Origin: Candidatus Poribacteria bacterium
GTDB taxonomy: Bacteria; Poribacteria; WGA-4E; WGA-3G
Direction of reading: 5' to 3'
NCBI GenBank assembly: GCA_958295945.1
Contig: OY282386.1
Location: 2,181,864 to 2,245,863, forward strand
DNA length: 64,000 nucleotides
Position 1 is the first letter of the stretch. The number at the start of each line of letters is the position of its first letter. Shown here one piece after another: positions 1 through 22,157 of this stretch. The notes under the pieces were generated by a model. It was given only the letters and a program-made list of their open reading frames with translations. It did no database searches and was not told where the DNA came from. The position numbers were made by a program, and so were the translations under genes.

Positions 1-1431
1 TTTCATGATGTAAAGTTACGTGCAGATGCAAGAGAAGCTGTATATCAACTGCCGAATAAAGTGCGTTCTATTGCAGAAATGTACTATCTGGATTTATTTA
101 GTGTGAATGATATTGCTGAAGAATATAACCTACCAATTGGAACGGTAAAGTCAAAACTGAGCGAAGTCCGACAACTACTACGAAAAGAATTTCAAATTGA
201 ACCTACAAAGGAGAACACAATGTCAACAAAACATGACAAACATGAAAATGGTGGAATTAAATGTAAGATAATTGGTGTAGGTGGAGCAGGATGCAATGCT
301 GTCAAACAGCTCAACAAAAAAGAAGACACTGACATAATTGATTATGGGATGGATGATAGAACTGAATTAGAATTCTATGCGATTGATACAGACAGTGAGA
401 CTTTAAAATCTTGTAATGAAATCACTCAGATTCAAATTGGTGCTACCGTTACACAAGGACAAGGAACGGGAGGGAGTCTTGAACTTGGTAGAAGAGCAGC
501 TGCCGAAAACATGGATGACCTTCACTCCATAGTATCAGATTCTGATATGCTTTTTATTATCGCTGGAATGGGCGGTGGAACGGGGACTGCAGTTGCACCC
601 GTACTCGCATCTTTAGCACGTGTACATAAAACATTGACTGTCTGCATTGCAACCCGACCACTTGACACTGAGAAAAAACACAAAAAAGAAAATGCTGATG
701 AAGGATTGAGTGAACTCCAAGAGGATCCAGATTCATGTGCAGATGCTATTATCGTGATACCGAACGGGCAAATCTTAAATTCACAAGGACTGAATTTGCC
801 AATGAATGAATTATTCCAGCAAAACAATGAAATACTCGTCCATGGAGTTAGCATCATTTTAGATATATTGGTAGAAGAATGTGAGATCACCGTTGGAATT
901 GATGACATACGAAGTCTTCTTAGTAATCAAGGAACTATGTTGATGGGAATTGGGAAGGCAAAGGGGGAAAATCGAGCAACAATTGCTGCCGAAAACGCAA
1001 TTAACTCGCTTCTCATTCAAGAAAACACAGTTGAATCAGATGCCGATATGTTAGTTAACATATATTCACCACCCAATTTCACAATGCATGAACTTGACCA
1101 AGCGATGCGTGTCATTTGTGAAAAATATCTCGATGCACAACCCATCTTTGGATTAATCTTTAAGGATGAATTAGAAAAGAACGATGAATTAATTGTTACG
1201 ATAATATCAAGTTGTGCAGAAAAGCAAGAAACATCTGCCCCATCAATTCCTCCACGGGATAGAGGCAAAACTCCAATAGATGACCACCAAGCACCATCTT
1301 CATCTGATCCTGATTCTTTATCATCACAAAGTCGAGATTTATTTAACATATTGATCAATGACCAACAGATACCAGAATCTGTACAGTTAGCTATTGATAA
1401 CAGTGTATCTGTTGTAATTCTTCCAGACTAA
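1..1431 (+). CDS. Partial (5' truncated) sigma-70/ECF region-4 domain fused in frame to an FtsZ/tubulin-like GTPase domain
   Basis: Frame 1 is open from base 1 (FHDVKLRADAREAVYQLPNKVRSIAEMYYLDLFSVNDIAEEYNLPIGTVKSKLSEVRQLLRK = sigma4-type HTH), followed by FtsZ motifs IIGVGGAGCNAV, AIDTD, GQGTGG, AGMGGGTGT, GTMLMGIG. Confidence 0.85.
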   Translation, partial: FHDVKLRADAREAVYQLPNKVRSIAEMYYLDLFSVNDIAEEYNLPIGTVKSKLSEVRQLLRKEFQIEPTKENTMSTKHDKHENGGIKCKIIGVGGAGCNAVKQLNKKEDTDIIDYGMDDRTELEFYAIDTDSETLKSCNEITQIQIGATVTQGQGTGGSLELGRRAAAENMDDLHSIVSDSDMLFIIAGMGGGTGTAVAPVLASLARVHKTLTVCIATRPLDTEKKHKKENADEGLSELQEDPDSCADAIIVIPNGQILNSQGLNLPMNELFQQNNEILVHGVSIILDILVEECEITVGIDDIRSLLSNQGTMLMGIGKAKGENRATIAAENAINSLLIQENTVESDADMLVNIYSPPNFTMHELDQAMRVICEKYLDAQPIFGLIFKDELEKNDELIVTIISSCAEKQETSAPSIPPRDRGKTPIDDHQAPSSSDPDSLSSQSRDLFNILINDQQIPESVQLAIDNSVSVVILPD

Positions 1432-1540: not shown

Positions 1541-1675
1541 GGGTGTGGGGTGTATAAAGTCTTTGTCACTAACTTCTCACCATGAATTGTAGGGGCGGGT
1601 CTCTGTGCCCGCCCGTTGCATTACAGGACAAGGAATGGCGGCGCACAGAGACCCGGGGAACGCCAAAAGGCGTTC
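1541..1675. repeat. REP-like inverted doublet (GTAG-GGGCGGGTCTCTGTGCCCGCCC family) with conserved flank
   Basis: gtaggggcgggtctctgtgcccgccc at 1589-1614, inverted partner ggcggcgcacagagaccc at 1638-1654; flank gggtgtataaagtctttgtcactaacttctcacc recurs inverted at 14268-14300. Confidence 0.8.
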
Positions 1676-2448: not shown

Positions 2449-3186
2449 ATGCACATACGACCAAACTTTCTACAACAAACCATTGAATCTGCAATCACAT
2501 TTATATATCCAGCACAGTGCCACGTCTGTAAAAAACAACTCGGTTTTGAATCTGCTCCATATATCTGCGATACATGTTGGAAATTTATTGAATTTATTCA
2601 ATCGCCATGGTGTGAAATCTGCGGAATACCATATACTGAAGACCTGTGTAATTCCTGTGCAACGAAACCACCACGTTTCGGCAAACTGCGGACGATTGCA
2701 GTGTATGAAAACACTATACAACAAGCAATACATCTATTTAAATTTAACAAACGATATTCACTCAGTCATACCCTAAAACAACTCATTTTGGATAACATAC
2801 CATGCGACTTAAACCTAACTGACTATGACTACGTCCTTCCAGTACCTATTCACAAAAAACGTCTACGTGAACGTGGGTTTAACCAGTCTACGTTGTTGGC
2901 AAAAGGGATCGCGAAAGTAGTAGGTCTTAGAGTATTAGAGGATGTACTTATTAGAGAAAAAAACACATCACCGCAAAGTAGTTTAGACAGAGAAGCACGT
3001 CAAACTAACATCAAGGGTGCATTCAAAATACAGAATGCTGACATAATACGTGACAAACATATTCTTGTGTTTGATGATGTCTTTACCACGGGTGCTACTG
3101 TGCGTGAAGTTGTAAATGTCCTATGGGATGCCGACCCAATGGAAATCGACGTGCTAACTTTAGCAAGGACTCTAAACCCCTATTGA
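2449..3186 (+). CDS. comF: ComF family amidophosphoribosyltransferase-like protein with double zinc ribbon
   Basis: CHVC/CDTC/CEIC/CNSC zinc ribbon, PVPIH..RLRERGFNQS and LVFDDVFTTGATV PRTase motif. Confidence 0.9.
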   Translation: MHIRPNFLQQTIESAITFIYPAQCHVCKKQLGFESAPYICDTCWKFIEFIQSPWCEICGIPYTEDLCNSCATKPPRFGKLRTIAVYENTIQQAIHLFKFNKRYSLSHTLKQLILDNIPCDLNLTDYDYVLPVPIHKKRLRERGFNQSTLLAKGIAKVVGLRVLEDVLIREKNTSPQSSLDREARQTNIKGAFKIQNADIIRDKHILVFDDVFTTGATVREVVNVLWDADPMEIDVLTLARTLNPY

Positions 3187-3477: not shown

Positions 3478-6400
3478 TTGCACTTAAAAAGCATCAAAAT
3501 CAGAGGATTCAAGAGCTTCGCCGAAGAAGTTGATTTATTACTCGAACCTGGCATCACAACCATTGTCGGTCCAAACGGATGTGGTAAGAGTAATGTTTCC
3601 GATGCAATACGATGGGTATTAGGTGAACAGAGTCCCAGAGCACTTCGCTGCACCAGCATGCGAGACCTACTATTTAACGGTGGATCAAACTTTAATCCCG
3701 CTCAAAAAGCAAGTGTTACACTCGCACTTACCAATATTTCTGAAAAACTATCAATTCAGTCACCTGATGTTGAAGTTTGCAGACAACTCACACGCGATGG
3801 AGAGAGTAGTTATCTTATCAACCAGACAGCATGTAGACTACGCGATATCAGCGAACTATTTATGGATACAGGTGTTGGAGTTGATGCATACTCTGTGATG
3901 GAACAGAGTAAAATTGATATGATACTTAACGTTCGTCCAGAAGAAAGACGCTTTCTATTTGATGAAGTTGCGGGTATTACAAAATCTAAGCATAACAAAA
4001 AGACTGCTCTACGTAAGTTAGAAGAGACAAAACAGAATTTAGTCCGGATAAACGATGTGATTCAGGAATTAGAACGTGAAACGGAATCTCTAAAATCACA
4101 GGCTGAACAAGCCGAACGCTATAAATCACTGAAAGAACAACAACAGAAATTAGAATTAGGTCTTGCATATCGGGAATACGAAAAACTTGCAGTTGAACAT
4201 CTTGAAGCACAAAATAAACTGAATGAATTAATAAACCAAGTCAGTGAAGCAAATCAAGATATACAGGAGGCTGAAGATAGAGTTGAAAGCGCATCTATTA
4301 AAAGAAGTGAACTGGATACTGCAATCGCTACTGCGCAAGAAAAGAAAAATGAAATAGAAGGTCAAATAGATAAGATTGAACGACAGCTTGTAGTATACAA
4401 AGAAAACCAAATAAATATAGCACAGCAGCGGCAAAGAGCATTGCAAACACTTGAATCCTTAAAAACACAACATATTCATCTACAAACGCAGAAAAAGGAG
4501 CGGTTACAAGAAAAGAAAAGAAAAGAGGCATCATTAAAAATTGAGGAAAGTCGAGTATCAGGACGTAAGCAACTTTTACAGGAATTGAGTACACGAATTG
4601 ACAATACCAATCAAACTATACAAGAGGCACAAAACGATCTGCAGGAGACTATCGCTGAACTTTCCCATCTTCAAAATAAAAGAACTTCCATTGAAGATAA
4701 GGTTACAAATACACAGAACAGTCTTGACCGGTTGAAAGAAAATTCTGACACGCTAAATGCTGAACTAAAAACTGCAAATGACAACCGTGAGGAAATACAA
4801 CATGCCGCTACAAAATTAGATGCTGACATAATACAGATTGAAACTGAAAAAGAGAAAGTTGAAGCAACGTTCAACGAAACTCAAGACGCTCTTCGTCAGA
4901 TTGATACAAGAATACGCGGGTTACAAGATACATTAGGTATAAATCAAACCCAACATAGAACCTTGACGCAAATGCAAGCCTCCTATAGAGGATACTATGC
5001 TGGTGTCAGTGCAATTATGCAAGCAAAAGAGCATTATCCTGAACAGTTTAGCGGGATTTGCGGTGTTGTCGCAGAACTCATACAGACACAAAACGATTAT
5101 GAGGTCGCTATTGAGGTATCACTCGGCAGTGCAATACAAAATGTTATCGCTGAGACTGCAGATGATGCTGATGCAGGAATAAGATTTCTAAAAAAGCATA
5201 ATGCAGGTAGAGTGACATTTATACCACTTGACATTATCCGACGGAGAAATTTCACTGACGATGCGCTTCTTGATGAACCCGGTGTGATCGGAGTAGCTGA
5301 AGATTTGGTGGATTTCGACTACATCTATCAACCCGCAGTACAACATCTATTAGGCAACACACTTGTCATAGATAATTTGGACAATGCTATCTCACTCAAA
5401 AGAAGGTGCAACCCAAACGCTCGATTGGTTACCTTAGAAGGTGAATTGATAAATACATCTGGAGCAATCACAGGGGGGCATACTGAACAAAGAAAAACAG
5501 GACTTCTCAGTAGAACCAACGAGCTTGATGTTTTACAGACAAAGATTGATGAATTAACAAAATTAGTAAATCAGACCGAACAAAAACGTAAATCTTATGC
5601 AGCAACTATTGCACAAGCACAACAATCAAGACAGTCATTTTCAACACAATGGCAGGATAAAAAAATTGAAAGAGCTGCTATAACCAAAGATATTGAACAA
5701 ATTGACCAAAACATTGTCCGAATTGAAAAACAAATAGCAGAAAATGAAGTTGAAAATAGACAACACGAGGAAACTGCTGATCTTTCAAGAGATGAACAAC
5801 TGCAACTTTATGAAAAAATAGAAGAACTCACGAAAAAAAGAACTCAAAATGAAAATAGAATAAAACGTGTTACTGAAAGTATAGATAGTGATAAACGTAA
5901 ACAGGATGAAGTGGCTAACGAAGTTCAGGAGAATGAAATCTTTTTGGCAGGACAACACGGTATTATCGATGGTATGAGTACTGAACTTGAAGGTTTTGAT
6001 GACAGAGAAATTCAAATTGAAGAGGAAATGAAAAAACAACAGGACATAATTAACAATGATGAACAAACTAAACAAGACATATCTGACCAAATTAGAGAAG
6101 CGGAACGAAAATTCCTCCAAATTCAAGGTGATTTTGCAGAAGCTGAAGCAGAATATGACGAACTAGTTGAAGAACGAGATGAACTAGTAATAGAAATTGA
6201 AAATCTACAGAAAGATATGCGTGGAACACGAAGATTGTATGAAAAGCAGAATCGAGCACGGACGCAACTTGAGATTAAAACTACGCAACTTGAAATGCGA
6301 ATCAAATCCAACTCCACACGGATCCTTGATAAATACCAAGTTTCTATTGAAGAACTGCCAAAGCCTATGCTCAATGTTTCAAATTCTGAAAATGAAACTA

Positions 6401-7089
6401 ATACCTACGAAGCAAATCAGTCAGAAATCAATGAAATTGACATGATGGATGAAATTGAGAAATTGAAAGCTGAATTGGCTGCAATGGGAGATATCAATCT
6501 CAAGGCAATTGAAGCACATGAGGAACACAAGAAGCGACTGGATTTCCTTGTTTCACAACGTGAAGACGTTCAACAATCTATACAATCCTCATATCAAGCA
6601 ATACAAAAAATTAACGAAACATCATGTGAAGTGTTCCTGAAAACATTCGAACAGGTAAAAACCAATTTCCAAGAAGTTTTTTCCCAACTCTTTGGTGGTG
6701 GTGAAACAGAATTAAGATTGACTGATGAAACAAATCTATTAGAATCGGGAATTGATATTATCGCTCGTCCACCGGGTAAACGTCCACAGAGCATTACACA
6801 ACTTTCTGGTGGTGAACGTTCACTTGTTGCAATCGGGTTGTTGTTCGCTGTTTTCAAAATAAAACCGAGTCCTTTCTGTGTGCTTGATGAAGTAGATGCA
6901 GCACTTGACGAAGCAAACGTACTCCGTTTCACAAATCTCATCCGCGCATATTCGGACAACACCCAGTTCGTCATTATCACACATAACAACCGCACAATGG
7001 AAATAGCAGACGTAATGTATGGTGTTACAATGGAACAGGCAGGAATGTCAAAAATCGTCTCTGCAAAGTTTTCAAGATTGATAGCATAA
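3478..7089 (+). CDS. smc: Chromosome segregation protein SMC
   Basis: GFKSF, GPNGCGKSN Walker A, long coiled coils, hinge (GRVTFIPLD, VTLEGE..GAITGG), LSGGE signature, LDEVDAALD; TTG start with GGAGGA SD. Confidence 0.97.
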   Translation: MHLKSIKIRGFKSFAEEVDLLLEPGITTIVGPNGCGKSNVSDAIRWVLGEQSPRALRCTSMRDLLFNGGSNFNPAQKASVTLALTNISEKLSIQSPDVEVCRQLTRDGESSYLINQTACRLRDISELFMDTGVGVDAYSVMEQSKIDMILNVRPEERRFLFDEVAGITKSKHNKKTALRKLEETKQNLVRINDVIQELERETESLKSQAEQAERYKSLKEQQQKLELGLAYREYEKLAVEHLEAQNKLNELINQVSEANQDIQEAEDRVESASIKRSELDTAIATAQEKKNEIEGQIDKIERQLVVYKENQINIAQQRQRALQTLESLKTQHIHLQTQKKERLQEKKRKEASLKIEESRVSGRKQLLQELSTRIDNTNQTIQEAQNDLQETIAELSHLQNKRTSIEDKVTNTQNSLDRLKENSDTLNAELKTANDNREEIQHAATKLDADIIQIETEKEKVEATFNETQDALRQIDTRIRGLQDTLGINQTQHRTLTQMQASYRGYYAGVSAIMQAKEHYPEQFSGICGVVAELIQTQNDYEVAIEVSLGSAIQNVIAETADDADAGIRFLKKHNAGRVTFIPLDIIRRRNFTDDALLDEPGVIGVAEDLVDFDYIYQPAVQHLLGNTLVIDNLDNAISLKRRCNPNARLVTLEGELINTSGAITGGHTEQRKTGLLSRTNELDVLQTKIDELTKLVNQTEQKRKSYAATIAQAQQSRQSFSTQWQDKKIERAAITKDIEQIDQNIVRIEKQIAENEVENRQHEETADLSRDEQLQLYEKIEELTKKRTQNENRIKRVTESIDSDKRKQDEVANEVQENEIFLAGQHGIIDGMSTELEGFDDREIQIEEEMKKQQDIINNDEQTKQDISDQIREAERKFLQIQGDFAEAEAEYDELVEERDELVIEIENLQKDMRGTRRLYEKQNRARTQLEIKTTQLEMRIKSNSTRILDKYQVSIEELPKPMLNVSNSENETNTYEANQSEINEIDMMDEIEKLKAELAAMGDINLKAIEAHEEHKKRLDFLVSQREDVQQSIQSSYQAIQKINETSCEVFLKTFEQVKTNFQEVFSQLFGGGETELRLTDETNLLESGIDIIARPPGKRPQSITQLSGGERSLVAIGLLFAVFKIKPSPFCVLDEVDAALDEANVLRFTNLIRAYSDNTQFVIITHNNRTMEIADVMYGVTMEQAGMSKIVSAKFSRLIA

Positions 7090-8221: not shown

Positions 8222-10960
8222 TTAACCAACTGAGGCAATATCTAAATGTGCTTTCCAGTGCGCATTTAGCATTTTCTTCATCAACTGATGTTCAGGTCTT
8301 TCAAGATGAGGATCCTCTTTTATCAATTCAATCGCTTCTTTTTTTGCTGTTTCCAATAGTGTGGCATCACTAATAATATTGGCAATCTTGAATTTTGGTA
8401 GACCTGACTGACGTGTGCCGAAGAATTCTCCGGGACCACGAATATTCAAATCCTCTTCGGCAATAACAAAACCATCATTAGACCGAATCATCACTTGAAT
8501 TCTACGATACGATTCATCTGTTTTTGGTGTAGCAACAAGATAACAAAAGGATTTATCACTACCTCTACCGACTCTACCGCGCAACTGATGAAGTTGTGCT
8601 AAACCAAACCGTTCCGCATTTTCAATGACCATTAGAGTCGCATTCGGCACATCAATACCGACTTCAATGACAGTTGTTGATACCAATATATCAAGTTCTT
8701 GTGCATTAAACTGCGACATTATCTCCTGTTTTTCAACGGATTTCATCTGTCCATGTAACAATCCAACGCGCAACTGTGGAAAGACATCTTTCTGTATGTG
8801 CTCAGCCATACTCGTCGCAGCTTTCAACTCCTCCAGTTTTTCGGATTCTTCTACAAGTGGATAGACTATATATGCCTGTTTGCCTCTTTTAATCTCACGC
8901 TGAATTTTATTGTATAACTCTGAACGATCTTTCTCCTTTACCCATCTCGTATCAATCTTCTGTCTACCGGGTGGCATCTCATCAATCACAGAGATATTGA
9001 GGTCACCATATATCGTTAAGGATAATGTCCTCGGTATAGGTGTAGCAGTCATAACCAATACATCAGGTTCATACTTATCCTCGCTGCTCTGCCCATCTGC
9101 TGACTTTGCTTTTCCCATGAGTGTTGCCCGTTGCATCACACCAAATCTATGCTGTTCATCAATTATAACAAGTCCAAGTTTGTGGAATTCAACACCCTCC
9201 TGAATTAATGCTTGTGTGCCGACGATAATGTTTGCTGATCCATCGATAATTGCAGACAATGCATCTTCACGTTCAGCTTTTGGCAGATCGCTTTTGAGTA
9301 GCACTACCTCTACACCCAGAGGCGTTAACAAGGATGACAAATTCTGGTGATGTTGTTCAGCAAGGATTTCAGTTGGTACCATAATAGCACCTTGATAGCC
9401 GTTTTCAATTGCACATATCAACGCCATCGCAGCGACGGCAGTTTTACCTGAACCGACATCTCCTTGAATAAGACGGTTCATCACACGTTGGCTTTGCATA
9501 TCTCCACATATTTCATTGAAGACCCGTTTCTGAGCATTTGTCAAGGAAAAAGGTAAGGAATCAACAAACTTCTTTAGAAGATAACTTTCATTTTCTCTAT
9601 TATTATGTATCGCAAACATAATACCTTTTTGTGATGTTCTGTTGTCCTTTCGCATCTCCATTCCAAGGCTCAGTAGAAAGAATTCATCAAAAGCGAGTCT
9701 ACGTTGAGCAGCCTGTCTATGTGCTTCTGATGATGGATAATGAATCTCATGTATTGCTTGTTGACGGTCAAGTAATGCGTGTTTTTTTCGTAGTGAGAGA
9801 GGGAGGATTTCTGAGATTTCATCACCATGTTGGTCCAAGGCATTCCGGACAGCAGTTCGCACCATTCTTGCAGTTAGCTTCGCAGTTAAAGGATATTTTG
9901 GGACGATTCGCTTGGTATGAATAAGATTGTCTTCTTCAAATATCTCAAATTCGTAATCTGTTGTTTGGATTTCATTATAACGTCGAGTGAATTTGCCGCT
10001 AATCACCACCTCAGTATCAGCTGGCAGAATTGATTTGATATAACCGATTCTCCTACCGAAGTTCACTAATATCGCAACACCAGTACCATCATATATCGAA
10101 ACCTTACCAATGCTTTTACGCCCCTTCGCTACAGGAGGAGTCGTAACATGATTAACAACACGTCCCTGAATAGTCTCTGGTTCACCATCCTCTCTTCTGC
10201 CGACACTATATATTTCAACTGTTTTTGATCTATCAATGTAGTCTCGTGGATAGTATTCCAACAATCCACCAACAGTATGTATACCTATCTCGTCCGCCAA
10301 AATCTCAGCACGTTTAGGACCAATTCCCTTGACATATTGGAGAGGGTTGTTGAAAACATCAAGAGATTCTACATCTGTTGATACAGGGGTATCACCAAGT
10401 ATAACAGGAATATCCTTCTCATCATTTCCATCTGTCTCTGTTGTTGTATCTGCATCAAATGGTATTAAGGTTTCATTTGCATTCTGTGAATTACTATCTG
10501 AAGCAGTGTTATTTGTGGTCAGGTCGATATCTGGTGAGATGTCCAAATCTTGAAACAGCGGTAAGTTATCATTTTGGTTTGTTGATACCGGTTCTGTTTG
10601 TTTCTTATTAATAGGTTTGTTGGTTTTTTTTGAGGAAGTTGGAATATGTCCAGCATCTTTCTTAGGTAGTGTGTTGTCTAGAGTTTTTCCAGCAAGCGAT
10701 GCTTCAATCAATTCAGTTGCTTTTTCAATAGCACTTTTCCGTTCAATAGGTTTAAAATTGACATAATTCTCAAATAGTTCATCTATACGATTGAGAAACT
10801 GTGTTTCATCAGAGGTAAGATTGAGTTTCCTTGCATTTCCAACCCAGAGTCTAACATAATCTCCCATTCCATTGATAACTACATCGTCTTGACAACCCTT
10901 ACGAATTTCTTGCTGAAACGGACGACAAATGGTAGATAAAATTTGCTTATAATCGTTCAT
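8222..10960 (-). CDS. recG: ATP-dependent DNA helicase RecG with ~200-aa N-terminal extension
   Basis: YYPRDYIDR wedge region, QGDVGSGKT, IIDEQHRFG, MTATPIPRTL, TTVIEVGIDVPNA, QLRGRVGRG, RGPGEFFGTRQSG. Confidence 0.97.
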   Translation of the reverse strand: MNDYKQILSTICRPFQQEIRKGCQDDVVINGMGDYVRLWVGNARKLNLTSDETQFLNRIDELFENYVNFKPIERKSAIEKATELIEASLAGKTLDNTLPKKDAGHIPTSSKKTNKPINKKQTEPVSTNQNDNLPLFQDLDISPDIDLTTNNTASDSNSQNANETLIPFDADTTTETDGNDEKDIPVILGDTPVSTDVESLDVFNNPLQYVKGIGPKRAEILADEIGIHTVGGLLEYYPRDYIDRSKTVEIYSVGRREDGEPETIQGRVVNHVTTPPVAKGRKSIGKVSIYDGTGVAILVNFGRRIGYIKSILPADTEVVISGKFTRRYNEIQTTDYEFEIFEEDNLIHTKRIVPKYPLTAKLTARMVRTAVRNALDQHGDEISEILPLSLRKKHALLDRQQAIHEIHYPSSEAHRQAAQRRLAFDEFFLLSLGMEMRKDNRTSQKGIMFAIHNNRENESYLLKKFVDSLPFSLTNAQKRVFNEICGDMQSQRVMNRLIQGDVGSGKTAVAAMALICAIENGYQGAIMVPTEILAEQHHQNLSSLLTPLGVEVVLLKSDLPKAEREDALSAIIDGSANIIVGTQALIQEGVEFHKLGLVIIDEQHRFGVMQRATLMGKAKSADGQSSEDKYEPDVLVMTATPIPRTLSLTIYGDLNISVIDEMPPGRQKIDTRWVKEKDRSELYNKIQREIKRGKQAYIVYPLVEESEKLEELKAATSMAEHIQKDVFPQLRVGLLHGQMKSVEKQEIMSQFNAQELDILVSTTVIEVGIDVPNATLMVIENAERFGLAQLHQLRGRVGRGSDKSFCYLVATPKTDESYRRIQVMIRSNDGFVIAEEDLNIRGPGEFFGTRQSGLPKFKIANIISDATLLETAKKEAIELIKEDPHLERPEHQLMKKMLNAHWKAHLDIASVG

Positions 10961-10963
10961 ATC

Positions 10964-12370
10964 CTACCTATACAATTGCTTTAGAAATATATCACCACTA
11001 TCACGATTACTGTTGCTCCAGATGACAGACACTTTCTCATCACTAACAGAGACAACGAAGGGAGGAAAATGTTCTCCATCACTGGTAGAAATAGGAACAC
11101 CTTCTTTATTCAACAACAAATTCCCATCCAAATCTATTTTCTGGCTGAAGATCCCATCCACACTTTTTTCACCAAAATCTCCACGATAGTCTAACCATGC
11201 AACGAAGAAATGGTCGTCTAGGGTACGCACAATGTCCGGTCTATCTTGATGACCACCGACTGTGCATATAGGTATGCCATCTTCTTGCCAAAGTAATGTT
11301 CCATCAGCCTGAATCCTTTGGGCATATAGGTCTGAATAGATGTCACGTTCATCACGCCAAACTACAATTGCCCCGCCATGACCGTCATCAACAATTGCTG
11401 GATTCTTCTGAATTCCAGCAGCAGTGCAGATTGGAATGCCTTCCTCCTGCCAGAACTTGCTACCATCAGAGGAAACCCGTTGCGCGAATAATTGATCATT
11501 AATAAAATTCTCGTAAACCTGCCATACAACAATAATTCCACCTTCGCCATCAGAAACGACGCGATGCACACCTTGTATCCCATCATTTGGAGTAATTAGA
11601 ACAGGTTTATCCCAAAATGGTTTTGCATCCAAACTGATCCTGTAAGCCATTATGTTCCATTGATCCGTACCAATAACATCCCACCAAACTACATAAAATC
11701 CATTCATCTCATCGGGAATTAGAATGGGTTCACTCTGTAGAGATTCAGAGGGAAATACAGGAATCCCATCGTGTTTCCACATCGGTTCTCCAAAAGCATT
11801 CACTCGTTGGATATAAAGATCTTGGAATTCCGTGCTTCTCCGTTCATCCTCCCACACAAGGACTGCGCCGCCCTCACCATCACTTACTATAGCTTGAGTG
11901 GATTGATCTGAAGTATTTACACAGATTGGCACTCCATCTTTTTCCCACAACACTTGACCTTCAAAATCTATGGCTTGTGCATAGATATCCCAACTACTGC
12001 GTCCACGTCTATCGTTCCAAACTATAATAGCGTGTGTGTCGTATCCAACCATCCGTAAACGGCGTTGATTATTTGCTGCCAGAGAAATTGGTAGACCGTT
12101 CGGTTCCCACAATGCAACATTACCGTTGTCAATATATTGTCCGTATACATCCCAATCTTTACCTGTTCTGTAATCTTCCCATATAACAATTAATCCACCC
12201 TTTCCATCTGGGACGGCTTGCGGAAATAGTTGTCCATCAACAGCATCAGAGACGATTATATCCGCTATTGTTTTTGTAGACTGCATATAGGTGAATAGTC
12301 CAAATGTGATGGATATGAGCAACGGAATTAAATGGATATTTAATCGTTGAATAGTGTTTTGGGTGTCCAT
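10964..12370 (-). CDS. Exported repeat protein, probable beta-propeller (DG.GG..VVW.D.R....D.YAQR repeats)
   Basis: N-terminal hydrophobic segment; about 8 repeats of ~55 aa, e.g. IVSDGEGGAVLVWEDERR, IVDDGHGGAIVVWRDERDIYSDLYAQRI. Confidence 0.7.
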   Translation of the reverse strand: MDTQNTIQRLNIHLIPLLISITFGLFTYMQSTKTIADIIVSDAVDGQLFPQAVPDGKGGLIVIWEDYRTGKDWDVYGQYIDNGNVALWEPNGLPISLAANNQRRLRMVGYDTHAIIVWNDRRGRSSWDIYAQAIDFEGQVLWEKDGVPICVNTSDQSTQAIVSDGEGGAVLVWEDERRSTEFQDLYIQRVNAFGEPMWKHDGIPVFPSESLQSEPILIPDEMNGFYVVWWDVIGTDQWNIMAYRISLDAKPFWDKPVLITPNDGIQGVHRVVSDGEGGIIVVWQVYENFINDQLFAQRVSSDGSKFWQEEGIPICTAAGIQKNPAIVDDGHGGAIVVWRDERDIYSDLYAQRIQADGTLLWQEDGIPICTVGGHQDRPDIVRTLDDHFFVAWLDYRGDFGEKSVDGIFSQKIDLDGNLLLNKEGVPISTSDGEHFPPFVVSVSDEKVSVIWSNSNRDSGDIFLKQLYR

Positions 12371-12837
12371 AAATTGACCAATTTCCCTTTAGTGGACAAA
12401 TCCAACATTTTCCAATGTTCTATAGGAAGTTGAAAATGAGCAATTGCTGCGGTAGGCATCCGATGTAGTTCTCCGGAAAGATGTGAGACAAGTTGTTCCA
12501 TTGTAGGGTTGTGTCCCACCACCATGACACACTGATATTTGTTGGATAATTCCTGAAGATACTCATAGTAGACACCTGGTGGAGCAAGATATAGGTCATC
12601 CAATCTGTTTATCTTTTCGGTGTATCCACAGGCTTTAGCAACTTTAGATGCAGTTTTTCTTGCACGTTTTGCTGATGAAGTAAGAATACAATCTGGAACT
12701 AAACCTTGTTGGTTGAGATGCTTTCCTATTCTTGGTGCATCCCGTTTACCGCGCTTGTTTAATGGACGATCATAATCGGATAAGGCAGGATTATCCCAAC
12801 TGGATTTTGCATGTCGTAATATAAGAAGGGTTTTCAT
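12340..12837 (-). CDS. sixA: SixA-type histidine phosphatase
   Basis: LRHAKS, RPLNKRG, SSAKRARKT, VGHNPT motifs. Confidence 0.9.
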   Translation of the reverse strand: MKTLLILRHAKSSWDNPALSDYDRPLNKRGKRDAPRIGKHLNQQGLVPDCILTSSAKRARKTASKVAKACGYTEKINRLDDLYLAPPGVYYEYLQELSNKYQCVMVVGHNPTMEQLVSHLSGELHRMPTAAIAHFQLPIEHWKMLDLSTKGKLVNLWTPKTLFND

Positions 12838-12882
12838 GTTTAATTATACTGTCTGTCGTTAGGTTGGAAAGTATCTACAACA

Positions 12883-13893
12883 TTATACCTGGGTCCAATC
12901 CATGATGACACCTAAGTATTTGTCTTTATGATCTGTCAAACCATCATAAGCAGATTGCGCATCTTCTGGGTTAATTACATGTGTTAGCAATTCCTCAACC
13001 TTAAACTTACCATCCACAATGAGTGAATAAACTATTTGCGAATTTCGTTCAAGTGAGTGTTTTGATTCACCTGAGTGCATTGTTGGAAACACCCATTCAT
13101 GCGCGCTTTTTAGGGAAATTGCACCTCTACCTATGAGATGAGTATAGTTGAAAATGTCCGTAACATTCGTGACATATTCACCGCGAGGTGATCCGAGAAG
13201 GATTACCTCTCCTTTTCTTCCTGTCAGTTGATAGGCTAATTCTACAAGGCGTGGATTGCCAATTGCTTCAACGGTAACCACCGCTTTGTTACCTCCAGTA
13301 ATCTCATTAACCCTTTCATGGACATTTTCTTTATCAGGATTGATCAAGTGCTTTATCCCACAATTACGAGCAATTTCTATACGTTCAGGTACGCGTTCTA
13401 CACTAATAACATTCATTCCTGCTAAGTTGAAGAGTTGTGATGCCGAATTACCTACTAACCCTAAACCGATGATGACAACCGTATCACCAAATTCTGCAGA
13501 GGACACACGAAGTGAAGTCATAGCAACCGTTGCCATACGCACAAAAGGGACCAGTTTGGCATCTATCTCTAATGGAGGTTTGAATGATAACATTATGGAT
13601 GAAGTTTTAACAATAGAGGCGTGTGAACTATAGCAAAAGACAAAATCACCAACTGCACACTTTGTTACTTGCTCACCAACTTTTAGGACCTCGCCAATAG
13701 CCGTATATCCTGACCCGTGGGGAAACCGAGTACCACTTTCTAAGCCGGTAAATCCTGCTCCTTCTGTGCCGGGACTGATTAGACTGTAATGTGTTTTGAG
13801 TAATATTTGATTAGGTGCAAGTGTTTCGTCCAGTTCAAAATCCGCTAAGGTTGCCACTCTTTGTTCAGGCATGATAATCTGTTTGCCTTTCAT
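12883..13893 (-). CDS. MDR (zinc-binding-dehydrogenase family) oxidoreductase lacking the structural Zn lobe
   Basis: SLISPGTE, GYTAIGEV, GLGLVG Rossmann motif. Confidence 0.8.
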   Translation of the reverse strand: MKGKQIIMPEQRVATLADFELDETLAPNQILLKTHYSLISPGTEGAGFTGLESGTRFPHGSGYTAIGEVLKVGEQVTKCAVGDFVFCYSSHASIVKTSSIMLSFKPPLEIDAKLVPFVRMATVAMTSLRVSSAEFGDTVVIIGLGLVGNSASQLFNLAGMNVISVERVPERIEIARNCGIKHLINPDKENVHERVNEITGGNKAVVTVEAIGNPRLVELAYQLTGRKGEVILLGSPRGEYVTNVTDIFNYTHLIGRGAISLKSAHEWVFPTMHSGESKHSLERNSQIVYSLIVDGKFKVEELLTHVINPEDAQSAYDGLTDHKDKYLGVIMDWTQV

Positions 13894-16948: not shown

Positions 16949-19222
16949 TTAAATATTTACCTCTACAATCGTCATTGTATCATTGCCGAAAATGTCTACA
17001 ACCTTGACAGCAATTTTTCTGGAACCCGGTTTGCATTCATGTGCTATGCTCTTTAATTCCAAAGACCGATCCTTCTTGGTGCGAAAACTTTGCCACTCAT
17101 TTTCAAAGACATACTCGCCTGTCCACTGTTCTTTCCACGCCTCTGTATCTGTGTCCTGCACACGGATAATCTCGCGTTTACTCTCAAATTCAAAATCAAC
17201 AGACCAATAATCTATCCAGTCAGTCCATTCTTTCGTCAAAATATCTTTCGTAACGACCCCCTCAGAATCTTTGCTAACCTTTACAACTTGTCCTTTTTCC
17301 ACGACAATTTTACTGCTTTTGTTCTTTAGTGTTTGTTCAGCACCTGAGATTGAATCTTGTGAATAGAAAACAGAGAAATCGGTCAATTCTACCGTTACTG
17401 TCGCTGGTCTATCATTTTTACCATTTGTAGTATGCGTTTTCACTTCAATGAACGCTACATCATGAAACACAACTTGATTCTGCTCCACTGCGCGTTTGTC
17501 AAATACTTCCGCGGGGATGTATTTCGGTGCAAGGTCAATGCCTTTATCTTTCGCTTCCTGTAACACATTGGGAAACAATCCCATCTCAAACTCAAAACCG
17601 AGAACGTCAACACGGGTAACCTGATGTCTTCTGCATTCAAGGATAATCTCTTCTATGAATAGACGCGTTACTGGTAAATTGACGGGCCCAATTGCGATTA
17701 ACCTGCCCGCTTTTTTACCTGGAAAACTGGCAAAACCTTCAGCCTTTTCGGCAGAATAAGCGCGTAGGATAAGGTCAATAAATGTCTTTTCCTTTTCTTC
17801 TAACTGTTGCTGTTGTTCTAACTCTCGTAGGTTTGGATTGACACCGACATAGTGCTGACGTTCATATTTGCCGAGGTTGAGGATTTCAAAGGCACGGTAG
17901 TCTTCACCCTCCTTTTTAAGTTCACGTTGTACTCCGATCAACCGTTTTCGTGTGGTGTGAATGGCAAACTTGCCGAGGTCTGTGACAATCCACTTGCGTC
18001 CAAGTTTTTCTGCAACGGCAGCAGTAGTCCCTGACCCACAGAAAAAGTCAGCGACAAGGTCACCTTCATTAGAAGATGCTTCTATGATGCGTTCAAGTAA
18101 GGCTTCAGGTTTTTGTGTCGGATAATCAAGAATCTCTGCAGTCGTACCTTGCAAATTTGGAATATCATCCCACAAATTGTTTGCTAACTTTCCTTCATTT
18201 TCACGCTCATTCCAATAAGCTTTTTCCTGAAGAGTATTTCCTTCTAAATAGAGTCTGTTTTCATTTTCCAACGTTTTTAACTTTTCATATTTCATCCGCC
18301 ATCCCTTTTTAGGACATTTCCATGTTTTTCCATTATTATCAATATAATCGTATGTCGTTTCGGGTCCAGGACTAGCAGTTTTTTGCAGTGGATAGAGTCT
18401 ATAATTTCCCCTGCCATCTTCATCATTCCTAGTATACATTGCTTTTGTAGTAGGGGATAAGGGTTTAAAAACTGAGTTTACTATGTATTTATCACTTTTA
18501 GAATACCAAAATATTGTATCTGTGTCCCTAGATAAGTTTCTTGAAATTGTCTTACCACTAGAACTTCTTTGCCAAATAATTTCATTATGAAAATTATCGC
18601 TTCCGAACACTTCATCTAAAACGAGCCTTAAAAAACCAGAAACCCGCCAATCACAATGGGCATAAATACTACCATCTATTGCCATCAAGTCTCGCATCAG
18701 AATCAGCCTCTCGTAAATCATAGCGATGAAAGAGTCCGCACCTTTCCCCCAAGTATCACGGTAGGCAATTTCTTCCAGGATATTCGGGTTTTTGGTAAGC
18801 GTTTCACCACCTATCTCAATATCCATAGAAAAATCCGCACCTACGTCAAAGGGTGGGTCAATATAGATAAGTTTGAGTCCATCTTGTGCCTCAATTTCCT
18901 CGCGCAGTGGTCCGTTCTTGAGTGATGATAGTATCAGTTTGTTATCACCCCAGATTAACTTGTTTGTCCAGCCTTTGCGTTGTCTGCCGCGTTCATCAAA
19001 TAAACCGAGTTGTTCACTGGATTCTGCACGTGGTTCGTCTACGTGTTCAATAGTCTGGAATGGTAGTACGATGTTGCAAACTTCGTTTGTCTTGCCATTC
19101 CAAACGAGTTCTACTTCGCGTTTGTCTTCAAAGAGCAGGAAGCGGTATTTTTCGGGTAGTGGTTTGTCTGCTTCTATGTAGCGGATGATTTCTTGCTGTT
19201 CTGATTCTGTGAGTCGTGGCAT
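16949..19222 (-). CDS. mod: Type III-like R-M modification methyltransferase (beta-class N6-adenine MTase)
   Basis: IYIDPPF motif IV precedes TRD and [19 protein letters not shown] motif I; C-terminal [14 protein letters not shown]. Confidence 0.9.
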
Positions 19223-19298
19223 ATTTTGTCTTTCGTTATTTTTCGTTAATGTTTACCTGTTTTGGGACTTTTTCCGATTTCCACTGCTTTGGTTCTAA

Positions 19299-19889
19299 TT
19301 ACCAAATGTTGGTGAGTCTGTAAGTTGACTCAATATGTATTTTCATGCCGTTGTCAGTAGCCTTAACAAGATTTTTGAAGAATGCCTCAGTGTCTTGAGC
19401 GGTTTTGCTCGTTAGGCGGATGTTTCCACTCGGTGATCGTGTCCAATCGTAAGGTGGCATATCAAAACCGTGCGCGAAACTATGACGAACACGTAAGATC
19501 TCATTCAATCTTGCACGCACCTGAAAACCGTTCATCCTACGTCGACTCCATATCCAATCGTTGATAGGATCATATCCTGTACAGTCTACAAGAAATTTCT
19601 GTGTATTTTCCCAGTTCGGCGTATTAAATCTCCCCGATGCTCTTTCTGCTGCTTGCTGGGCGATCACGTAAACAGGAGATGAATTAGGTATCACATCGTA
19701 GAAGTCCCGCACGAGGTTTTTTATGTATCCGTTCCATACTGCAACATAGGCCGTAAGTGCTGCGTGATAGTAAACCTGTATTTCATCATTGTGCAACATA
19801 GGATGCAACTGCTTATCTGTTGCAGTCCTGCGAAGTGTCTGTATGCGATTTACTGAGGTTGTGTAGGTTGATAATGCTGGTGATGGCAC
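19299..19889 (-). CDS. HEPN-domain protein (putative RNase)
   Basis: All-helical pattern with N-terminal Y.AVW..Y and LNEILRVRHSFAHG RxxxxH motif at 19470-19487; starts 9 bp after the ParA stop. Confidence 0.75.
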   Translation of the reverse strand: MPSPALSTYTTSVNRIQTLRRTATDKQLHPMLHNDEIQVYYHAALTAYVAVWNGYIKNLVRDFYDVIPNSSPVYVIAQQAAERASGRFNTPNWENTQKFLVDCTGYDPINDWIWSRRRMNGFQVRARLNEILRVRHSFAHGFDMPPYDWTRSPSGNIRLTSKTAQDTEAFFKNLVKATDNGMKIHIESTYRLTNIW

Positions 19890-19898
19890 AAGAAACCT

Positions 19899-21002: not shown

Positions 21003-21137
21003 AATATAACCCCCTCAAAAAAATGAAAACACATAATAAATCTCGTTTAAAATTCTAACACAAATTGGTATGAATGTCAAAAGCTTGTTGCTTTTTGCTT
21101 TTGCAACGCTACATTATCATTGACAAGACTTACACAT

Positions 21138-21218
21138 TCCCCCTTGATAAGGGGGTTAGGGGTTAAAAAGTCGTTATTCAGTGATTTGCCCCCTAAATTC
21201 CCCTTATCGGAGGGACTT
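21138..21218. repeat. REP-like inverted doublet (CCCCCTTGATAAGGGGG family)
   Basis: tcccccttgataagggggttagggg 21138-21162 and ccccctaaattccccttatcggagggactt 21189-21218. Confidence 0.7.
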
Positions 21219-21248
21219 TAAGATAAGAGGAAATGCGTCCATCCTCCG

Positions 21249-22089: not shown

Positions 22090-22157
22090 AATTTACTATT
22101 GTATCAAAAAATGTGGTGTTTGTCAAAAAATGAGGATGTTTATTGAGAGCTTTATCA

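What the first reader, a model, noticed from the sequence alone, without database searches (positions are those of the whole stretch)
1..1431. Sigma-factor region 4 fused in frame to an FtsZ-like GTPase domain
The frame is open from base 1, reads as an ECF-type sigma4 HTH (SVNDIAEEYNLPIGTVKSKLSEVRQLLRK) and continues without a stop into a full FtsZ fold with both the GTPase and C-terminal subdomains. There is no FtsZ C-terminal anchor peptide (DIPAFLR-like) and no dcw gene neighbours. ECF sigmas with regulatory C-terminal extensions are established, but I do not know a characterised FtsZ/tubulin extension. Inference: a GTP- or polymer-sensing sigma factor, possibly linking transcription to GTP level or to the division apparatus.
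Basis: partly seen in the sequence, partly recalled or inferred. Interest (0 to 1): 0.82.

Follow-up and report, generated by a model that had tools for sequence, protein, structure and literature searches.

The report
Sigma factor fused to FtsZ paralogue
A sponge-associated bacterial phylum (Poribacteria) carries a conserved gene that joins a transcription-initiation (ECF sigma) factor to a diverged extra copy of the cell-division GTPase FtsZ; I found no description of this pairing, and it may link gene expression to a cytoskeletal or nucleotide-binding module.

Summary
Frame 1 is open from base 1 to a TAA at 1429-1431. It encodes the end of an ECF sigma factor (sigma4 helix-turn-helix), a short linker, then a complete FtsZ fold. 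The window cuts the gene: its 476 residues are exactly the C-terminus of a 597-aa database protein that also has sigma2.

The fusion is not an artefact. About 33 protein clusters (42-95% identity), every named source being Candidatus Poribacteria, keep the same architecture in conserved upstream synteny. Both halves are under purifying selection. A canonical ftsZ sits separately in a dcw cluster.

- A Shine-Dalgarno plus ATG inside the linker is conserved at DNA level, so a sigma-less FtsZ-like isoform is probably also made.
- The DIPAFLR anchor is replaced by a different conserved C-terminal peptide.
- The hydrolysis loops (T2, T3, T7) are altered while the phosphate loops T1 and T4 are kept.
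- Relatives swap the cargo: sigma-FtsZ-DnaE, sigma-DnaE, sigma-DnaN and DnaN-FtsZ.

Best reading: an autoregulated one-component ECF sigma gated in cis by the FtsZ-derived module. The mechanism is untested. I found no paper describing it. I rate it a new variant of a known kind, of high interest.

The parts
1..186 (+). C-terminal part of an ECF sigma factor: the end of the sigma2-sigma4 linker and the sigma4 helix-turn-helix. The gene is cut by the window edge; 121 further N-terminal residues, including sigma2, are known from the identical protein P0390.
   Evidence: Pfam Sigma70_r4_2 at aa 11-59. NCBIfam ECF models align aa 5-65 to their C-termini. Exact identity to P0390 residues 122-597. 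P0002 passes TIGR02937. Ka/Ks of sigma4 is 0.10-0.23 (0.43 in the closest pair, L001-L002).
187..219 (+). Linker EFQIEPTKENT, probably a former stop and intergenic region now read in frame. It contains a Shine-Dalgarno-like AAGGAG at nt 208-213.
   Evidence: The standalone family member P0169 ends at ...LLRKEFGVE*. A purine-rich SD lies 5-8 nt before the ATG in all 9 DNA loci although the encoded residues differ (KEN, KRS, RGK, KGE, RRK, REG). The linker evolves near neutrally and has pLDDT below 50.
220..222 (+). Internal ATG (Met74 of the window ORF, Met195 of the full protein). It is the probable start of a sigma-less FtsZ-like isoform of 403 aa.
   Evidence: This column is Met in 25 and Val in 5 of 30 fused proteins. 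It is preceded by the conserved SD.
262..780 (+). FtsZ/tubulin GTPase (N-terminal) subdomain. Motifs: T1 GVGGAGCN nt 274-297; T2 DTDSETL nt 385-405; T3 GQGTGGSLELG nt 457-489; T4 GMGGGTGTAVAP nt 565-600.
   Evidence: Pfam Tubulin E 3e-36. Motif coordinates. Column comparison of 30 fused against 38 canonical poribacterial FtsZ. Alignment to Staphylococcus FtsZ. Ka/Ks 0.14-0.36.
883..909 (+). T7 'synergy' loop region EITVGIDDI. The canonical sequence is EINVDFADV, so only the last Asp of N-x-D-x-x-D is kept here.
   Evidence: Among 30 fused proteins the Asn is kept in 20, the first Asp in 15 and the last Asp in 30.
931..1209 (+). FtsZ C-terminal subdomain.
   Evidence: Pfam FtsZ_C E 5e-13. pLDDT about 90. 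Ka/Ks 0.13-0.70, most relaxed within the window's own clade.
1216..1332 (+). Disordered linker rich in Ser, Pro, Thr, Asp and Glu.
   Evidence: pLDDT 25-35 in both models. Poorly conserved, Ka/Ks 0.3-0.8.
1333..1428 (+). Family-specific conserved C-terminal peptide RDLFNILINDQQIPESVQLAIDNSVSVVILPD. It takes the place of the FtsA/ZipA-binding DIPAFLR peptide.
   Evidence: The motif [FY]..[LMI]......P[ED]SV[QR]..I[DE][ND]S[VI]S is shared by all fused clades except the DnaE-fused one. It is predicted helical, with pLDDT about 82 in the full-length model but about 50 when sigma is left out.
1429..1431 (+). TAA stop codon. It is followed by about 1 kb of poorly conserved non-coding DNA before the next gene (ComF-like, 2449-3186).

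Best explanation
The gene encodes an autoregulated, 'one-component' ECF sigma factor of Candidatus Poribacteria. Its cognate regulator is not a separate anti-sigma factor but a fused module derived from a duplicated FtsZ. That module has the GTPase core and C-subdomain, a disordered linker, and a new conserved C-terminal peptide.

Shown:
- The fusion exists, is full length in the source genome, and is conserved across the phylum in fixed upstream synteny.
- Both halves are under purifying selection.
- It is an extra paralogue beside a canonical dcw-cluster ftsZ.
- It keeps the nucleotide phosphate-binding loops (T1, T4) but has altered hydrolysis loops.
- A family-specific promoter-like motif, (G/A)AACC-N17-CCTCT, lies upstream of this gene family only.
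- An internal SD plus ATG is conserved.

Inferred:
- The sigma domain drives its own promoter.
- The mRNA yields two products: the sigma-FtsZ fusion, and from the stronger internal ribosome-binding site a sigma-less FtsZ-like protein.
- The C-terminal peptide folds back on sigma2/sigma4, or otherwise needs sigma to become ordered, and holds sigma inactive.
- The nucleotide state, the self- or co-assembly of the FtsZ module (with the short isoform or with canonical FtsZ), or a ligand bound to it releases or sequesters sigma, and so sets the transcription of the locus.
For: Architecture and identity.

Conservation: about 33 fused clusters at 42-95% identity. All six genome hits carrying the fused gene are Candidatus Poribacteria. 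Upstream synteny is AP_endonuc_2, enolase-type, SDR, TatD, ABC permease, then the gene, in L001-3, L005, L006 and L009. No orthologue has a stop at the junction.

Selection (Ka/Ks): sigma2 0.08-0.19, sigma4 0.10-0.23 (0.43 in one close pair), FtsZ N-domain 0.14-0.36, FtsZ C-domain 0.13-0.70.

Paralogy: canonical FtsZ P0068, with DIPAFLR, lies in murG-murC-ftsA-ftsZ on the same chromosome as fused P0021.

No anti-sigma gene is adjacent. Lack of an anti-sigma factor is reported to be typical of ECFs with regulatory C-terminal extensions (PMC7826278, PMC8999054).

Promoter: TTTAAACC-N17-CCTCT lies about 30 nt before the start in seven long-class loci, two short-class loci and a standalone family member. 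It occurs upstream of no other gene in about 270 kb examined: two further exact matches to the looser pattern lie inside other sequence and look like chance, and the stricter pattern hits only these start regions.

Internal SD plus ATG.

Fold: TM-score 0.92-0.93 to solved FtsZ.

Tail: conserved. Its pLDDT is 82 with sigma and about 50 without.
Against: - There is no biochemical or expression evidence for any step.
- I could not read model coordinates or PAE, so tail-sigma contact rests only on a pLDDT difference between two runs with different alignments.
- pTM is 0.55, so the domain arrangement is uncertain.
- The tail is absent in the DnaE-fused clade, yet sigma stays under purifying selection there. 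The tail therefore cannot be a universal requirement.
- Relatives with the FtsZ domain truncated (about 400 aa) or cleanly deleted (P0388), and several disrupted copies, show that the intact FtsZ module is dispensable in some lineages.
- GTP-contact and catalytic residues are relaxed, which weakens a nucleotide-sensing role.
- The promoter motif was found upstream of the family's own genes only, so no regulon is known.
Confidence: 0.4

Rival explanations
1. The fusion is a relic of a bicistronic operon. A sigma gene and a downstream ftsZ paralogue lost the intervening stop. The working products are still a sigma (as the N-terminal part of a tolerated fusion) and a free FtsZ-like cytoskeletal protein made from the internal start. 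The covalent link has no regulatory meaning. The sigma simply drives expression of its cargo.
For: - The internal SD plus ATG is conserved at DNA level and looks stronger than the SD at the 5' start (AAGGAG against GGGAA).
- The linker evolves neutrally and is predicted disordered.
- The standalone sigma of the same family stops exactly where the linker begins.
- The promoter motif is found upstream of the family's own genes only, so the 'output' may be the cargo itself.
- The cargo is exchangeable: DnaE, FtsZ N-domain, WD40.
Against: - The reading frame across the junction has been kept open in about 33 clusters down to 42% identity. It also survives cargo rearrangements, for example the in-frame FtsZ deletion in P0388. 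If the link were neutral, stops or frameshifts at the junction should be common, and none was seen.
- The DnaE cargo in L004-6 has no Met at its junction, so there it can only be made as a fusion.
Confidence: 0.2
2. Physical coupling of transcription to the replisome or nucleoid. The FtsZ-like domain is an oligomerisation adaptor within a network of ECF sigma, FtsZ-like, beta-clamp and Pol III alpha domains. It tethers sigma (directly or through FtsZ:FtsZ contacts) to DNA-loaded replication proteins. This would be analogous to clamp-dependent late transcription in phages T4 and Mu.
For: Rosetta-stone pattern within Poribacteria:
- sigma-FtsZ-DnaE in three MAGs.
- sigma-DnaE (P0388, P0233).
- DnaN-FtsZ in about 13 clusters, one member named Candidatus Poribacteria.
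- sigma-DnaN in more than 80 clusters.
- sigma-DnaN and a short sigma-FtsZ lie 3 kb apart in one locus (L013).

SMC and RecG lie downstream in the window. Clamp-dependent transcription is documented for phage Mu (PMC12867686).
Against: - The sigma in sigma-DnaN belongs to a different ECF family.
- Co-occurrence of the long sigma-FtsZ with DnaN-FtsZ in one genome was not established.
- The fused DnaE lacks the OB and tau-binding C-terminus and was lost to IS insertion in L009.
- The DnaN-FtsZ gene is not at an origin-type locus.
- The downstream neighbours of the long class vary between clades.
Confidence: 0.15
3. Sequencing or assembly artefact, or a decaying pseudogene private to this genome.
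For: Some relatives are frameshifted or interrupted:
- P0389 plus P0001, an A-run frameshift in the sigma2-sigma4 linker.
- P0104 plus P0017.
- P0126 plus P0007.
- P0129, P0139 and P0158.
Against: - The ORF is intact in the window and in its source genome.
- The same architecture is found in NCBI, ENA and Logan assemblies, including megabase contigs.
- Both domains are under purifying selection.
- The observed breaks lie inside domains, not at the sigma/FtsZ junction.
Confidence: 0.02

Closest known systems
[quoted passage not shown]
   Same: The core is sigma2-sigma4 followed by a fused C-terminal domain of more than 50 aa. There is no adjacent anti-sigma gene, and an autoregulatory-type promoter lies upstream. 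The extension is expected to contact sigma2/sigma4 and gate activity (PMC7826278, PMC8999054).
   Different: The extension here is about 400 aa and is a complete FtsZ/tubulin-fold GTPase with its own disordered linker and terminal peptide. No FtsZ, tubulin or GTPase extension is mentioned in either review (0 occurrences). It has an internal translation start. Within the sigma family the cargo is exchangeable.
Canonical bacterial FtsZ (the cell-division protein of the dcw cluster)
   Same: It has the same two-subdomain fold (TM-score about 0.92) and the tubulin signature GGGTGT. The layout is also the same: core, then disordered linker, then conserved C-terminal peptide. It is 45-60% identical to poribacterial FtsZ, its closest relatives.
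   Different: - It scores below the TIGR00065 cut-off (253-256 against 295 bits).
- It has fixed changes in T1 (GGAGC), T2, T3 and T7.
- It lacks the DIPAFLR peptide and is not in the dcw cluster.
- It evolves much faster: 57% mean identity among fused copies against 89% among canonical copies.
- It is fused to a sigma factor.
SpoIIE - FtsZ - sigmaF pathway of Bacillus subtilis
   Same: It is a known case in which sigma-factor activation is tied to the FtsZ division machinery (PMC2953957, PMC10990147).
   Different: In Bacillus the coupling is indirect: a phosphatase binds FtsZ and acts on an anti-anti-sigma factor. The components are separate proteins, and the sigma is not an ECF. Here sigma and an FtsZ paralogue are one polypeptide.
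Sliding-clamp-dependent late transcription of phages T4 (gp45/gp55/gp33; from my own knowledge) and Mu (PMC12867686)
   Same: It offers a conceptual parallel for the wider poribacterial set (sigma-DnaN, DnaN-FtsZ, sigma-FtsZ-DnaE): a promoter-recognition factor physically linked to replication proteins.
   Different: The phage systems use non-covalent contacts and phage-specific factors. The window gene itself carries no clamp or polymerase domain.

Membership tests
ECF (group 4) sigma-70 family | Sigma2 and sigma4 domains only, recognised by family models | tested here: met
   In the window, Sigma70_r4_2 scores 25.6 bits, just under the cut-off of 25.7. The 95%-identical full-length P0002 scores 62.6 bits on TIGR02937 sigma70-ECF (cut-off 42.9). 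Sigma70_r2 and r4_2 are above cut-off in L003-L005. The window equals P0390 residues 122-597.
ECF (group 4) sigma-70 family | Autoregulated promoter with an AAC-containing -35 and a conserved -10 at about 16-17 nt spacing | tested here: inconclusive
   A conserved (G/A)AACC-N17-CCTCT motif lies upstream of long, short and standalone family members, and upstream of no other gene in the DNA examined. That it is a promoter used by this sigma is inferred, not shown.
ECF (group 4) sigma-70 family | Binds core RNA polymerase and directs initiation | not testable with these tools
   Needs in vitro transcription or a reporter assay.
ECF sigma with regulatory C-terminal extension | Fused C-terminal domain of more than 50 aa, conserved across the group, with no cognate anti-sigma gene next to it | tested here: met
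   A 400-aa extension is present in about 33 clusters. The neighbours are an ABC permease upstream, and non-coding DNA then a ComF-like gene downstream.
ECF sigma with regulatory C-terminal extension | The extension contacts sigma2/sigma4 or the linker and modulates activity | tested here: inconclusive
   The only hint is the pLDDT of the tail: 82 with sigma against about 50 without. No coordinates or PAE were available.
FtsZ (cell-division orthologue, TIGR00065) | Tubulin/FtsZ GTPase domain plus FtsZ_C domain, and the FtsZ fold | tested here: met
   Pfam E 3e-36 and 5e-13. Foldseek TM-score 0.92-0.93 to solved FtsZ.
FtsZ (cell-division orthologue, TIGR00065) | Score above the curated equivalog cut-off | tested here: not met
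   255.9 bits (window) and 253.1 bits (P0002) against a cut-off of 295.2.
FtsZ (cell-division orthologue, TIGR00065) | Intact catalytic T7 loop N-x-D-x-x-D and canonical T2/T3 loops | tested here: not met
   The window has T-V-G-I-D-D. T2 is DTDSETL (canonical NTDxQAL) and T3 is GQGTGGSLELG (canonical GLGAGANPEIG).
FtsZ (cell-division orthologue, TIGR00065) | Conserved C-terminal peptide (DIPAFLR type) that binds FtsA/ZipA, and dcw-cluster context | tested here: not met
   The tail is RDLFNILINDQQIPESVQLAIDNSVSVVILPD. The canonical copy with DIPAFLR sits beside ftsA in a dcw cluster elsewhere.
FtsZ (cell-division orthologue, TIGR00065) | GTP binding, GTPase activity and polymerisation | not testable with these tools
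   T1 (GGAGC) and T4 (GGGTGT) are retained, which suggests nucleotide binding. Activity needs biochemistry.

The most novel reading that the evidence does not exclude
Integrated-decoy (target-mimic) sensing. Poribacteria fuse ECF sigma domains to extra, fast-evolving, catalytically relaxed copies of essential proteins. From my own knowledge, these proteins are favourite targets of phage-encoded inhibitors and of natural-product antibiotics: FtsZ, the beta clamp DnaN, and Pol III alpha DnaE.

Binding of an inhibitor to the decoy domain would release or activate the sigma and switch on the locus. The short sigma-FtsZ and the sigma-DnaN genes sit among MacB/ABC2-type exporter genes (L010, L013). 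The window gene would be the FtsZ-decoy member of this sensor class.
Probability: 0.12. Interest if true: 0.95.

Novelty: new variant of a known kind. Interest (0 to 1): 0.8.

Why it matters
ECF sigma factors with fused regulatory domains are treated as the 'one-component systems' of the sigma world. The known extensions are small ligand- or protein-binding domains. A whole FtsZ-fold GTPase as the extension would add a new input class: nucleotide state, filament assembly, or binders of FtsZ.

It would also be a direct, covalent link between promoter selection and a cytoskeletal protein.

The fusion is conserved across an uncultured, sponge-associated phylum. It sits in a wider set of sigma/DnaN/DnaE/FtsZ fusions. 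It therefore gives concrete constructs with which to test:
- how FtsZ paralogues are re-used outside division;
- whether bacteria couple transcription to replication or division machinery, or to attack on that machinery, through fused sensor domains.

Tried and rejected
1. Artefact or private stop loss: rejected.
2. 'Orthologues are split': the only split versions break inside domains (frameshifts or insertions), not at the junction.
3. Regulon search: the promoter motif gave no hit in the 64-kb window. In about 200 kb of related loci it hit only the family's own start regions, apart from two chance-looking matches to the looser pattern. No targets were identified.
4. Rfam, tRNA and terminator scans of the window and the downstream gap found nothing. 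The 1-kb gap is poorly conserved.
5. PADLOC defence models gave no hit for sigma-FtsZ, DnaN-FtsZ or sigma-DnaE, and only a marginal CARF-domain hit (E 3.5e-4) for sigma-DnaN.
6. The NJ tree of FtsZ N-domains recovered the fused set as one clade, but its long branch prevents placing it reliably within Poribacteria. The origin from poribacterial FtsZ rests on pairwise identity.
7. Fusions outside Poribacteria: an exhaustive HMMER search found only one other, P0266. It has an unrelated RpoE-like sigma plus an FtsZ N-domain, on a single 2-kb contig, and may be an artefact.
8. Co-occurrence of the long sigma-FtsZ with DnaN-FtsZ or sigma-DnaN in one genome could not be established from cluster listings.
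9. The supplementary ECF group tables of PMC7826278 are not held, so an unnamed group with this architecture cannot be excluded.
10. The exact look-up of P0390 to fetch the window's upstream DNA found no record.
Full report
**1. What is in the window**

Frame 1 of the + strand is open from nt 1 to a TAA at 1429-1431, giving 476 codons. Domain hits on this protein (Pfam):
- Sigma70_r4_2 at aa 11-59, E 1e-5, 0.1 bit under the gathering score.
- Tubulin/FtsZ GTPase at aa 88-260, E 3e-36.
- FtsZ_C at aa 311-403, E 5e-13.

NCBIfam aligns aa 5-65 to the C-terminal ends of many ECF sigma models. It aligns aa 73-413 to ftsZ TIGR00065 at 256 bits, below the 295-bit equivalog cut-off. There is no stop between the two parts. 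The window truncates the gene. Its 476 residues are identical to residues 122-597 of P0390, a 597-aa protein recorded from NCBI and ENA on a 5.34-Mb contig, and the first 121 residues of P0390 contain sigma2. The 95%-identical P0002 passes the ECF superfamily model TIGR02937 (62.6 bits, cut-off 42.9).

**2. The fusion is real, conserved and specific to one phylum**

A search of 5.8 billion proteins returned about 33 clusters carrying sigma, Tubulin and FtsZ_C domains. Thirty of these are full length (575-642 aa), at 42-95% identity. A scan of one genome per species found the fused gene in six genomes, all titled Candidatus Poribacteria (L001-L006). An exhaustive HMMER search of 1.84 billion representatives added only one unrelated sigma-FtsZ protein, on a single 2-kb contig (P0266).

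The upstream genes are syntenic in all clades: AP_endonuc_2, an enolase-superfamily gene, an SDR, TatD, and an ABC permease. The downstream genes vary.

Ka/Ks values:
- sigma2 0.08-0.19
- sigma4 0.10-0.23 (0.43 in the closest pair, L001-L002)
- FtsZ N-subdomain 0.14-0.36
- FtsZ C-subdomain 0.13-0.70
- linkers about neutral

A few relatives are broken, but inside domains and not at the junction. The refutation condition 'orthologues normally split' is not met.

**3. It is an extra FtsZ paralogue**

On the chromosome that carries fused P0021, a canonical 448-aa FtsZ with a DIPAFLR C-terminus lies in a murG-murC-ftsA-ftsZ cluster. The fused FtsZ domains are closest to poribacterial FtsZ (45-60% identity) and more distant from other phyla. 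They evolve far faster, with 57% mean identity among fused copies against 89% among canonical copies.

I compared 30 fused with 38 canonical sequences and aligned the window protein to Staphylococcus FtsZ. The fused set shows these fixed differences:
- T1: GGAGG becomes GGAGC (30 of 30).
- T2: NTD.Q becomes DTD.E.
- T3: GLGAGANPEIG becomes GQGT.GSLELG.
- T4: the signature GGGTGT is kept.
- T7: only the last Asp of N-x-D-x-x-D is invariant. The window has T-V-G-I-D-D.
- The Asp of helix H7 that contacts guanine (role recalled from the FtsZ structural literature, not tested here) is Asn in half of the sequences.

In L004 and L005 even T1/T4 glycines are replaced. AlphaFold2 models of the FtsZ part are confident (pLDDT about 90) and match solved FtsZ structures at TM-score 0.92-0.93. 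My inference is that nucleotide binding is probably retained, while hydrolysis is slowed or lost in the window's clade.

**4.

(a) *Internal start.* The 11-residue linker contains AAGGAG (nt 208-213) six bases before an ATG (nt 220-222). In all nine DNA loci a purine-rich Shine-Dalgarno element precedes this ATG although the encoded residues differ (KEN, KRS, RGK, KGE, RRK, REG). In L003 the AGGAG sits in a different codon phase. The column is Met in 25 of 30 and Val in 5 of 30 proteins. A standalone member of the same sigma family stops exactly at ...LLRKEFGVE*. The linker therefore looks like a former stop plus intergenic region whose ribosome-binding site is still under selection. A 403-aa sigma-less isoform is probably made alongside the fusion.

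(b) *A new C-terminal peptide.* After a disordered Ser/Pro/Thr/acidic linker comes a conserved peptide of about 30 aa ([FY]..[LMI]......P[ED]SV[QR]..I[DE][ND]S[VI]S). It is present in every fused clade except the DnaE-fused one. The canonical FtsZ layout of core, disordered linker and terminal 'hook' is kept, but with a different hook. In the full-length model the hook is helical with pLDDT about 82. In a model of the sigma-less isoform it drops to about 50. This hints that it packs against the sigma domains. I could not inspect coordinates, so this is only suggestive.

(c) *A family promoter.* About 30 nt upstream of the start, TTTTTTAAACC-N17-CCTCT is conserved across clades. The same motif precedes the short paralogues (L010, L013) and, as CTGAACC-N17-CCTCTA, a standalone family member. 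Two further exact matches to the looser pattern lie inside other sequence in L003 and L009 and look like chance. The stricter pattern hits only the family's start regions, and neither pattern occurs in the window. It resembles ECF promoters, with an AAC -35 element and 17-nt spacing. Autoregulation is inferred.

**5. Family context**

Searching with the sigma part alone shows a Poribacteria-specific ECF family at 45-85% identity, with the next best hits at about 25-31%. Its members carry different in-frame C-terminal cargo behind the same linker:
- nothing (186-200 aa);
- full FtsZ (this gene);
- the FtsZ GTPase subdomain only (about 400 aa, at a separate locus among ABC2 and MacB/FtsX permeases and DUF5916 genes);
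- WD40 repeats;
- a second sigma2-like domain;
- decayed versions.

In three MAGs the ORF continues from FtsZ straight into a true DnaE1. This DnaE part scores 1022 bits on PRK05673, aligning to model positions 3-884 of 1146. It lacks the OB and tau-binding part and has no Met at the junction. P0019-22 and L009 keep only a 25-aa DnaE remnant followed by IS605- and IS4-type transposases. P0388 is sigma-DnaE with the FtsZ domain cleanly deleted in frame.

Separately, Poribacteria encode DnaN-FtsZ fusions (about 13 clusters; L012, not at an origin-type locus). They also encode sigma-DnaN fusions with a second ECF family (more than 80 clusters). One sigma-DnaN gene lies 3 kb from a short sigma-FtsZ in L013.

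**6. Mechanism**

Best-supported reading (confidence about 0.4): this is an autoregulated one-component ECF sigma. The anti-sigma function is supplied in cis by the FtsZ-derived module. The tail, the assembly state or the ligand state of that module decides whether sigma is free for core polymerase. The short isoform is a possible co-assembly partner.

The architecture, conservation, selection, motif changes, internal ribosome-binding site and promoter motif are shown. Everything about activity is inferred.

Rivals:
- A tolerated relic of a sigma-ftsZ-like bicistron (0.2).
- A physical tether between transcription and replisome proteins, suggested by the Rosetta-stone network and by clamp-dependent phage transcription (PMC12867686) (0.15).
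- An integrated decoy of inhibitor-targeted essential proteins (0.12; see the section on the most novel reading).
- An artefact or pseudogene (0.02).

**7. Comparison with the known, and novelty**

It works most like ECF sigmas with regulatory C-terminal extensions such as ECF41, ECF42 and CorE. It meets their structural criteria. However, neither the 2021 ECF reclassification nor a 2022 review mentions FtsZ, tubulin or GTPase extensions. Full-text searches for sigma/FtsZ fusions and for Poribacteria with FtsZ or sigma found nothing relevant.

It is not a member of the FtsZ equivalog family. The score cut-off, the T7 loop, the C-terminal peptide and the dcw context were all tested and not met.

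Verdict: a real, conserved feature not described in the literature I could search. It is a new variant of a known kind, with interest 0.8.

Noticed in passing
L004, L005 and L006, 10001 to about 14326 (Poribacteria MAGs PCPOR2a, RHO1_bin_11, jk18x22bins.76); also P0230: Triple fusion sigma-FtsZ-DnaE (1430-1442 aa). The DnaE part is a true DnaE1 ending after the HhH domain, with no OB or tau-binding region, and there is no Met at the FtsZ/DnaE junction. P0019-22 and L009 retain only 25 aa of DnaE, followed by IS605 TnpB and DDE transposase genes.
   Followed up: partly
P0388 (1084 aa) and P0233 (502 aa): Sigma-DnaE proteins in which the whole FtsZ domain has been deleted in frame. The junction reads ...GETMSIEQKK|FVHLHNHSEYS.
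   Followed up: partly
L012 8001-10121 (P0241 and about 13 clusters; one member is named Candidatus Poribacteria, RKU30103.1): A beta sliding clamp (three DnaN domains) fused to a diverged FtsZ domain, about 700 aa, with no C-terminal tail. It is not at a dnaA/oriC-type locus. The FtsZ part is about 50% identical to poribacterial FtsZ, with T2 DTD and T7 SVGFAD.
   Followed up: partly
L013 7001-8719 (P0413; more than 80 clusters, P0408-P0514): An ECF sigma of a second family fused N-terminally to a full DnaN clamp (about 575 aa), annotated by NCBI simply as 'DNA polymerase III subunit beta'. I found no paper on such fusions. In L013 it lies 3 kb from a short sigma-FtsZ (12007-13236), among MacB/FtsX, ABC2 permease, DUF5916 and DUF5694 genes.
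   Followed up: partly
P0144, P0157, P0175, P0238-P0247; P0125, P0128, P0137, P0138, P0149; L010 13150-14850: The same poribacterial sigma families also occur fused to WD40/beta-propeller regions (300-900 aa), to a second sigma2-like domain, or to unknown extensions of about 370 aa. They all sit behind the same '...EFGVE..GGIMS' type linker.
   Followed up: no
P0232, P0243, P0250 (731-840 aa; taxa unknown): Tandem FtsZ-FtsZ proteins with two complete Tubulin plus FtsZ_C units in one polypeptide.
   Followed up: no
P0389 (104 aa) plus P0001 (493 aa) on a 101-kb contig; P0126 plus P0007 on a 6.4-Mb contig: Strain-level disrupted copies of this same gene. One has a frameshift in an A-rich run of the sigma2-sigma4 linker (possibly a long-read homopolymer error). 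The other has an insertion after sigma2 plus an in-frame insert in the FtsZ C-subdomain.
   Followed up: partly
window 26670-32387 (-): A 1904-aa ORF made of two UvrA-like units (two UvrA_inter hits, one UvrA_DNA-bind hit, and ABC ATPase hits spread along the whole length). This is about twice the length I recall for a typical UvrA.
   Followed up: no
window 16949-24845 (-): A restriction-modification-like block: a 756-aa N6/N4 DNA methylase, an AAA_31 protein, and an 894-aa ResIII helicase/nuclease subunit.
   Followed up: no
window 60866-63643 (-): A 924-aa protein combining an AAA_11/AAA_12 superfamily-1 helicase with an MTES_1575 restriction-endonuclease-like domain and DUF3320.
   Followed up: no
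window 38372-42064 (-): A 1229-aa S8 subtilase with FG-GAP repeats and a type IX secretion C-terminal sorting domain (Por_Secre_tail).
   Followed up: no
window 2449-3186 (+), 3478-7089 (+), 8222-10960 (-): The genes downstream of the fusion are a ComF-like protein, SMC and RecG. The ComF-like protein has a double zinc ribbon and a PRTase domain, and its PRTase part also matches PADLOC PsyrT/ShosT. This order is shared with L001 and L003 but not with the DnaE-fused clade.
   Followed up: partly
window 1588-1658 (+): A GC-rich inverted repeat (TGTAGGGGCGGGTCTCTGTGCCCGCCCG ... GGCGCACAGAGACCCGGGG) in the otherwise AT-rich 1-kb gap after the gene. A similar TGTAGGAGCG... element lies upstream of the gene in L004, so it may be a REP-like repeat.
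   Followed up: no
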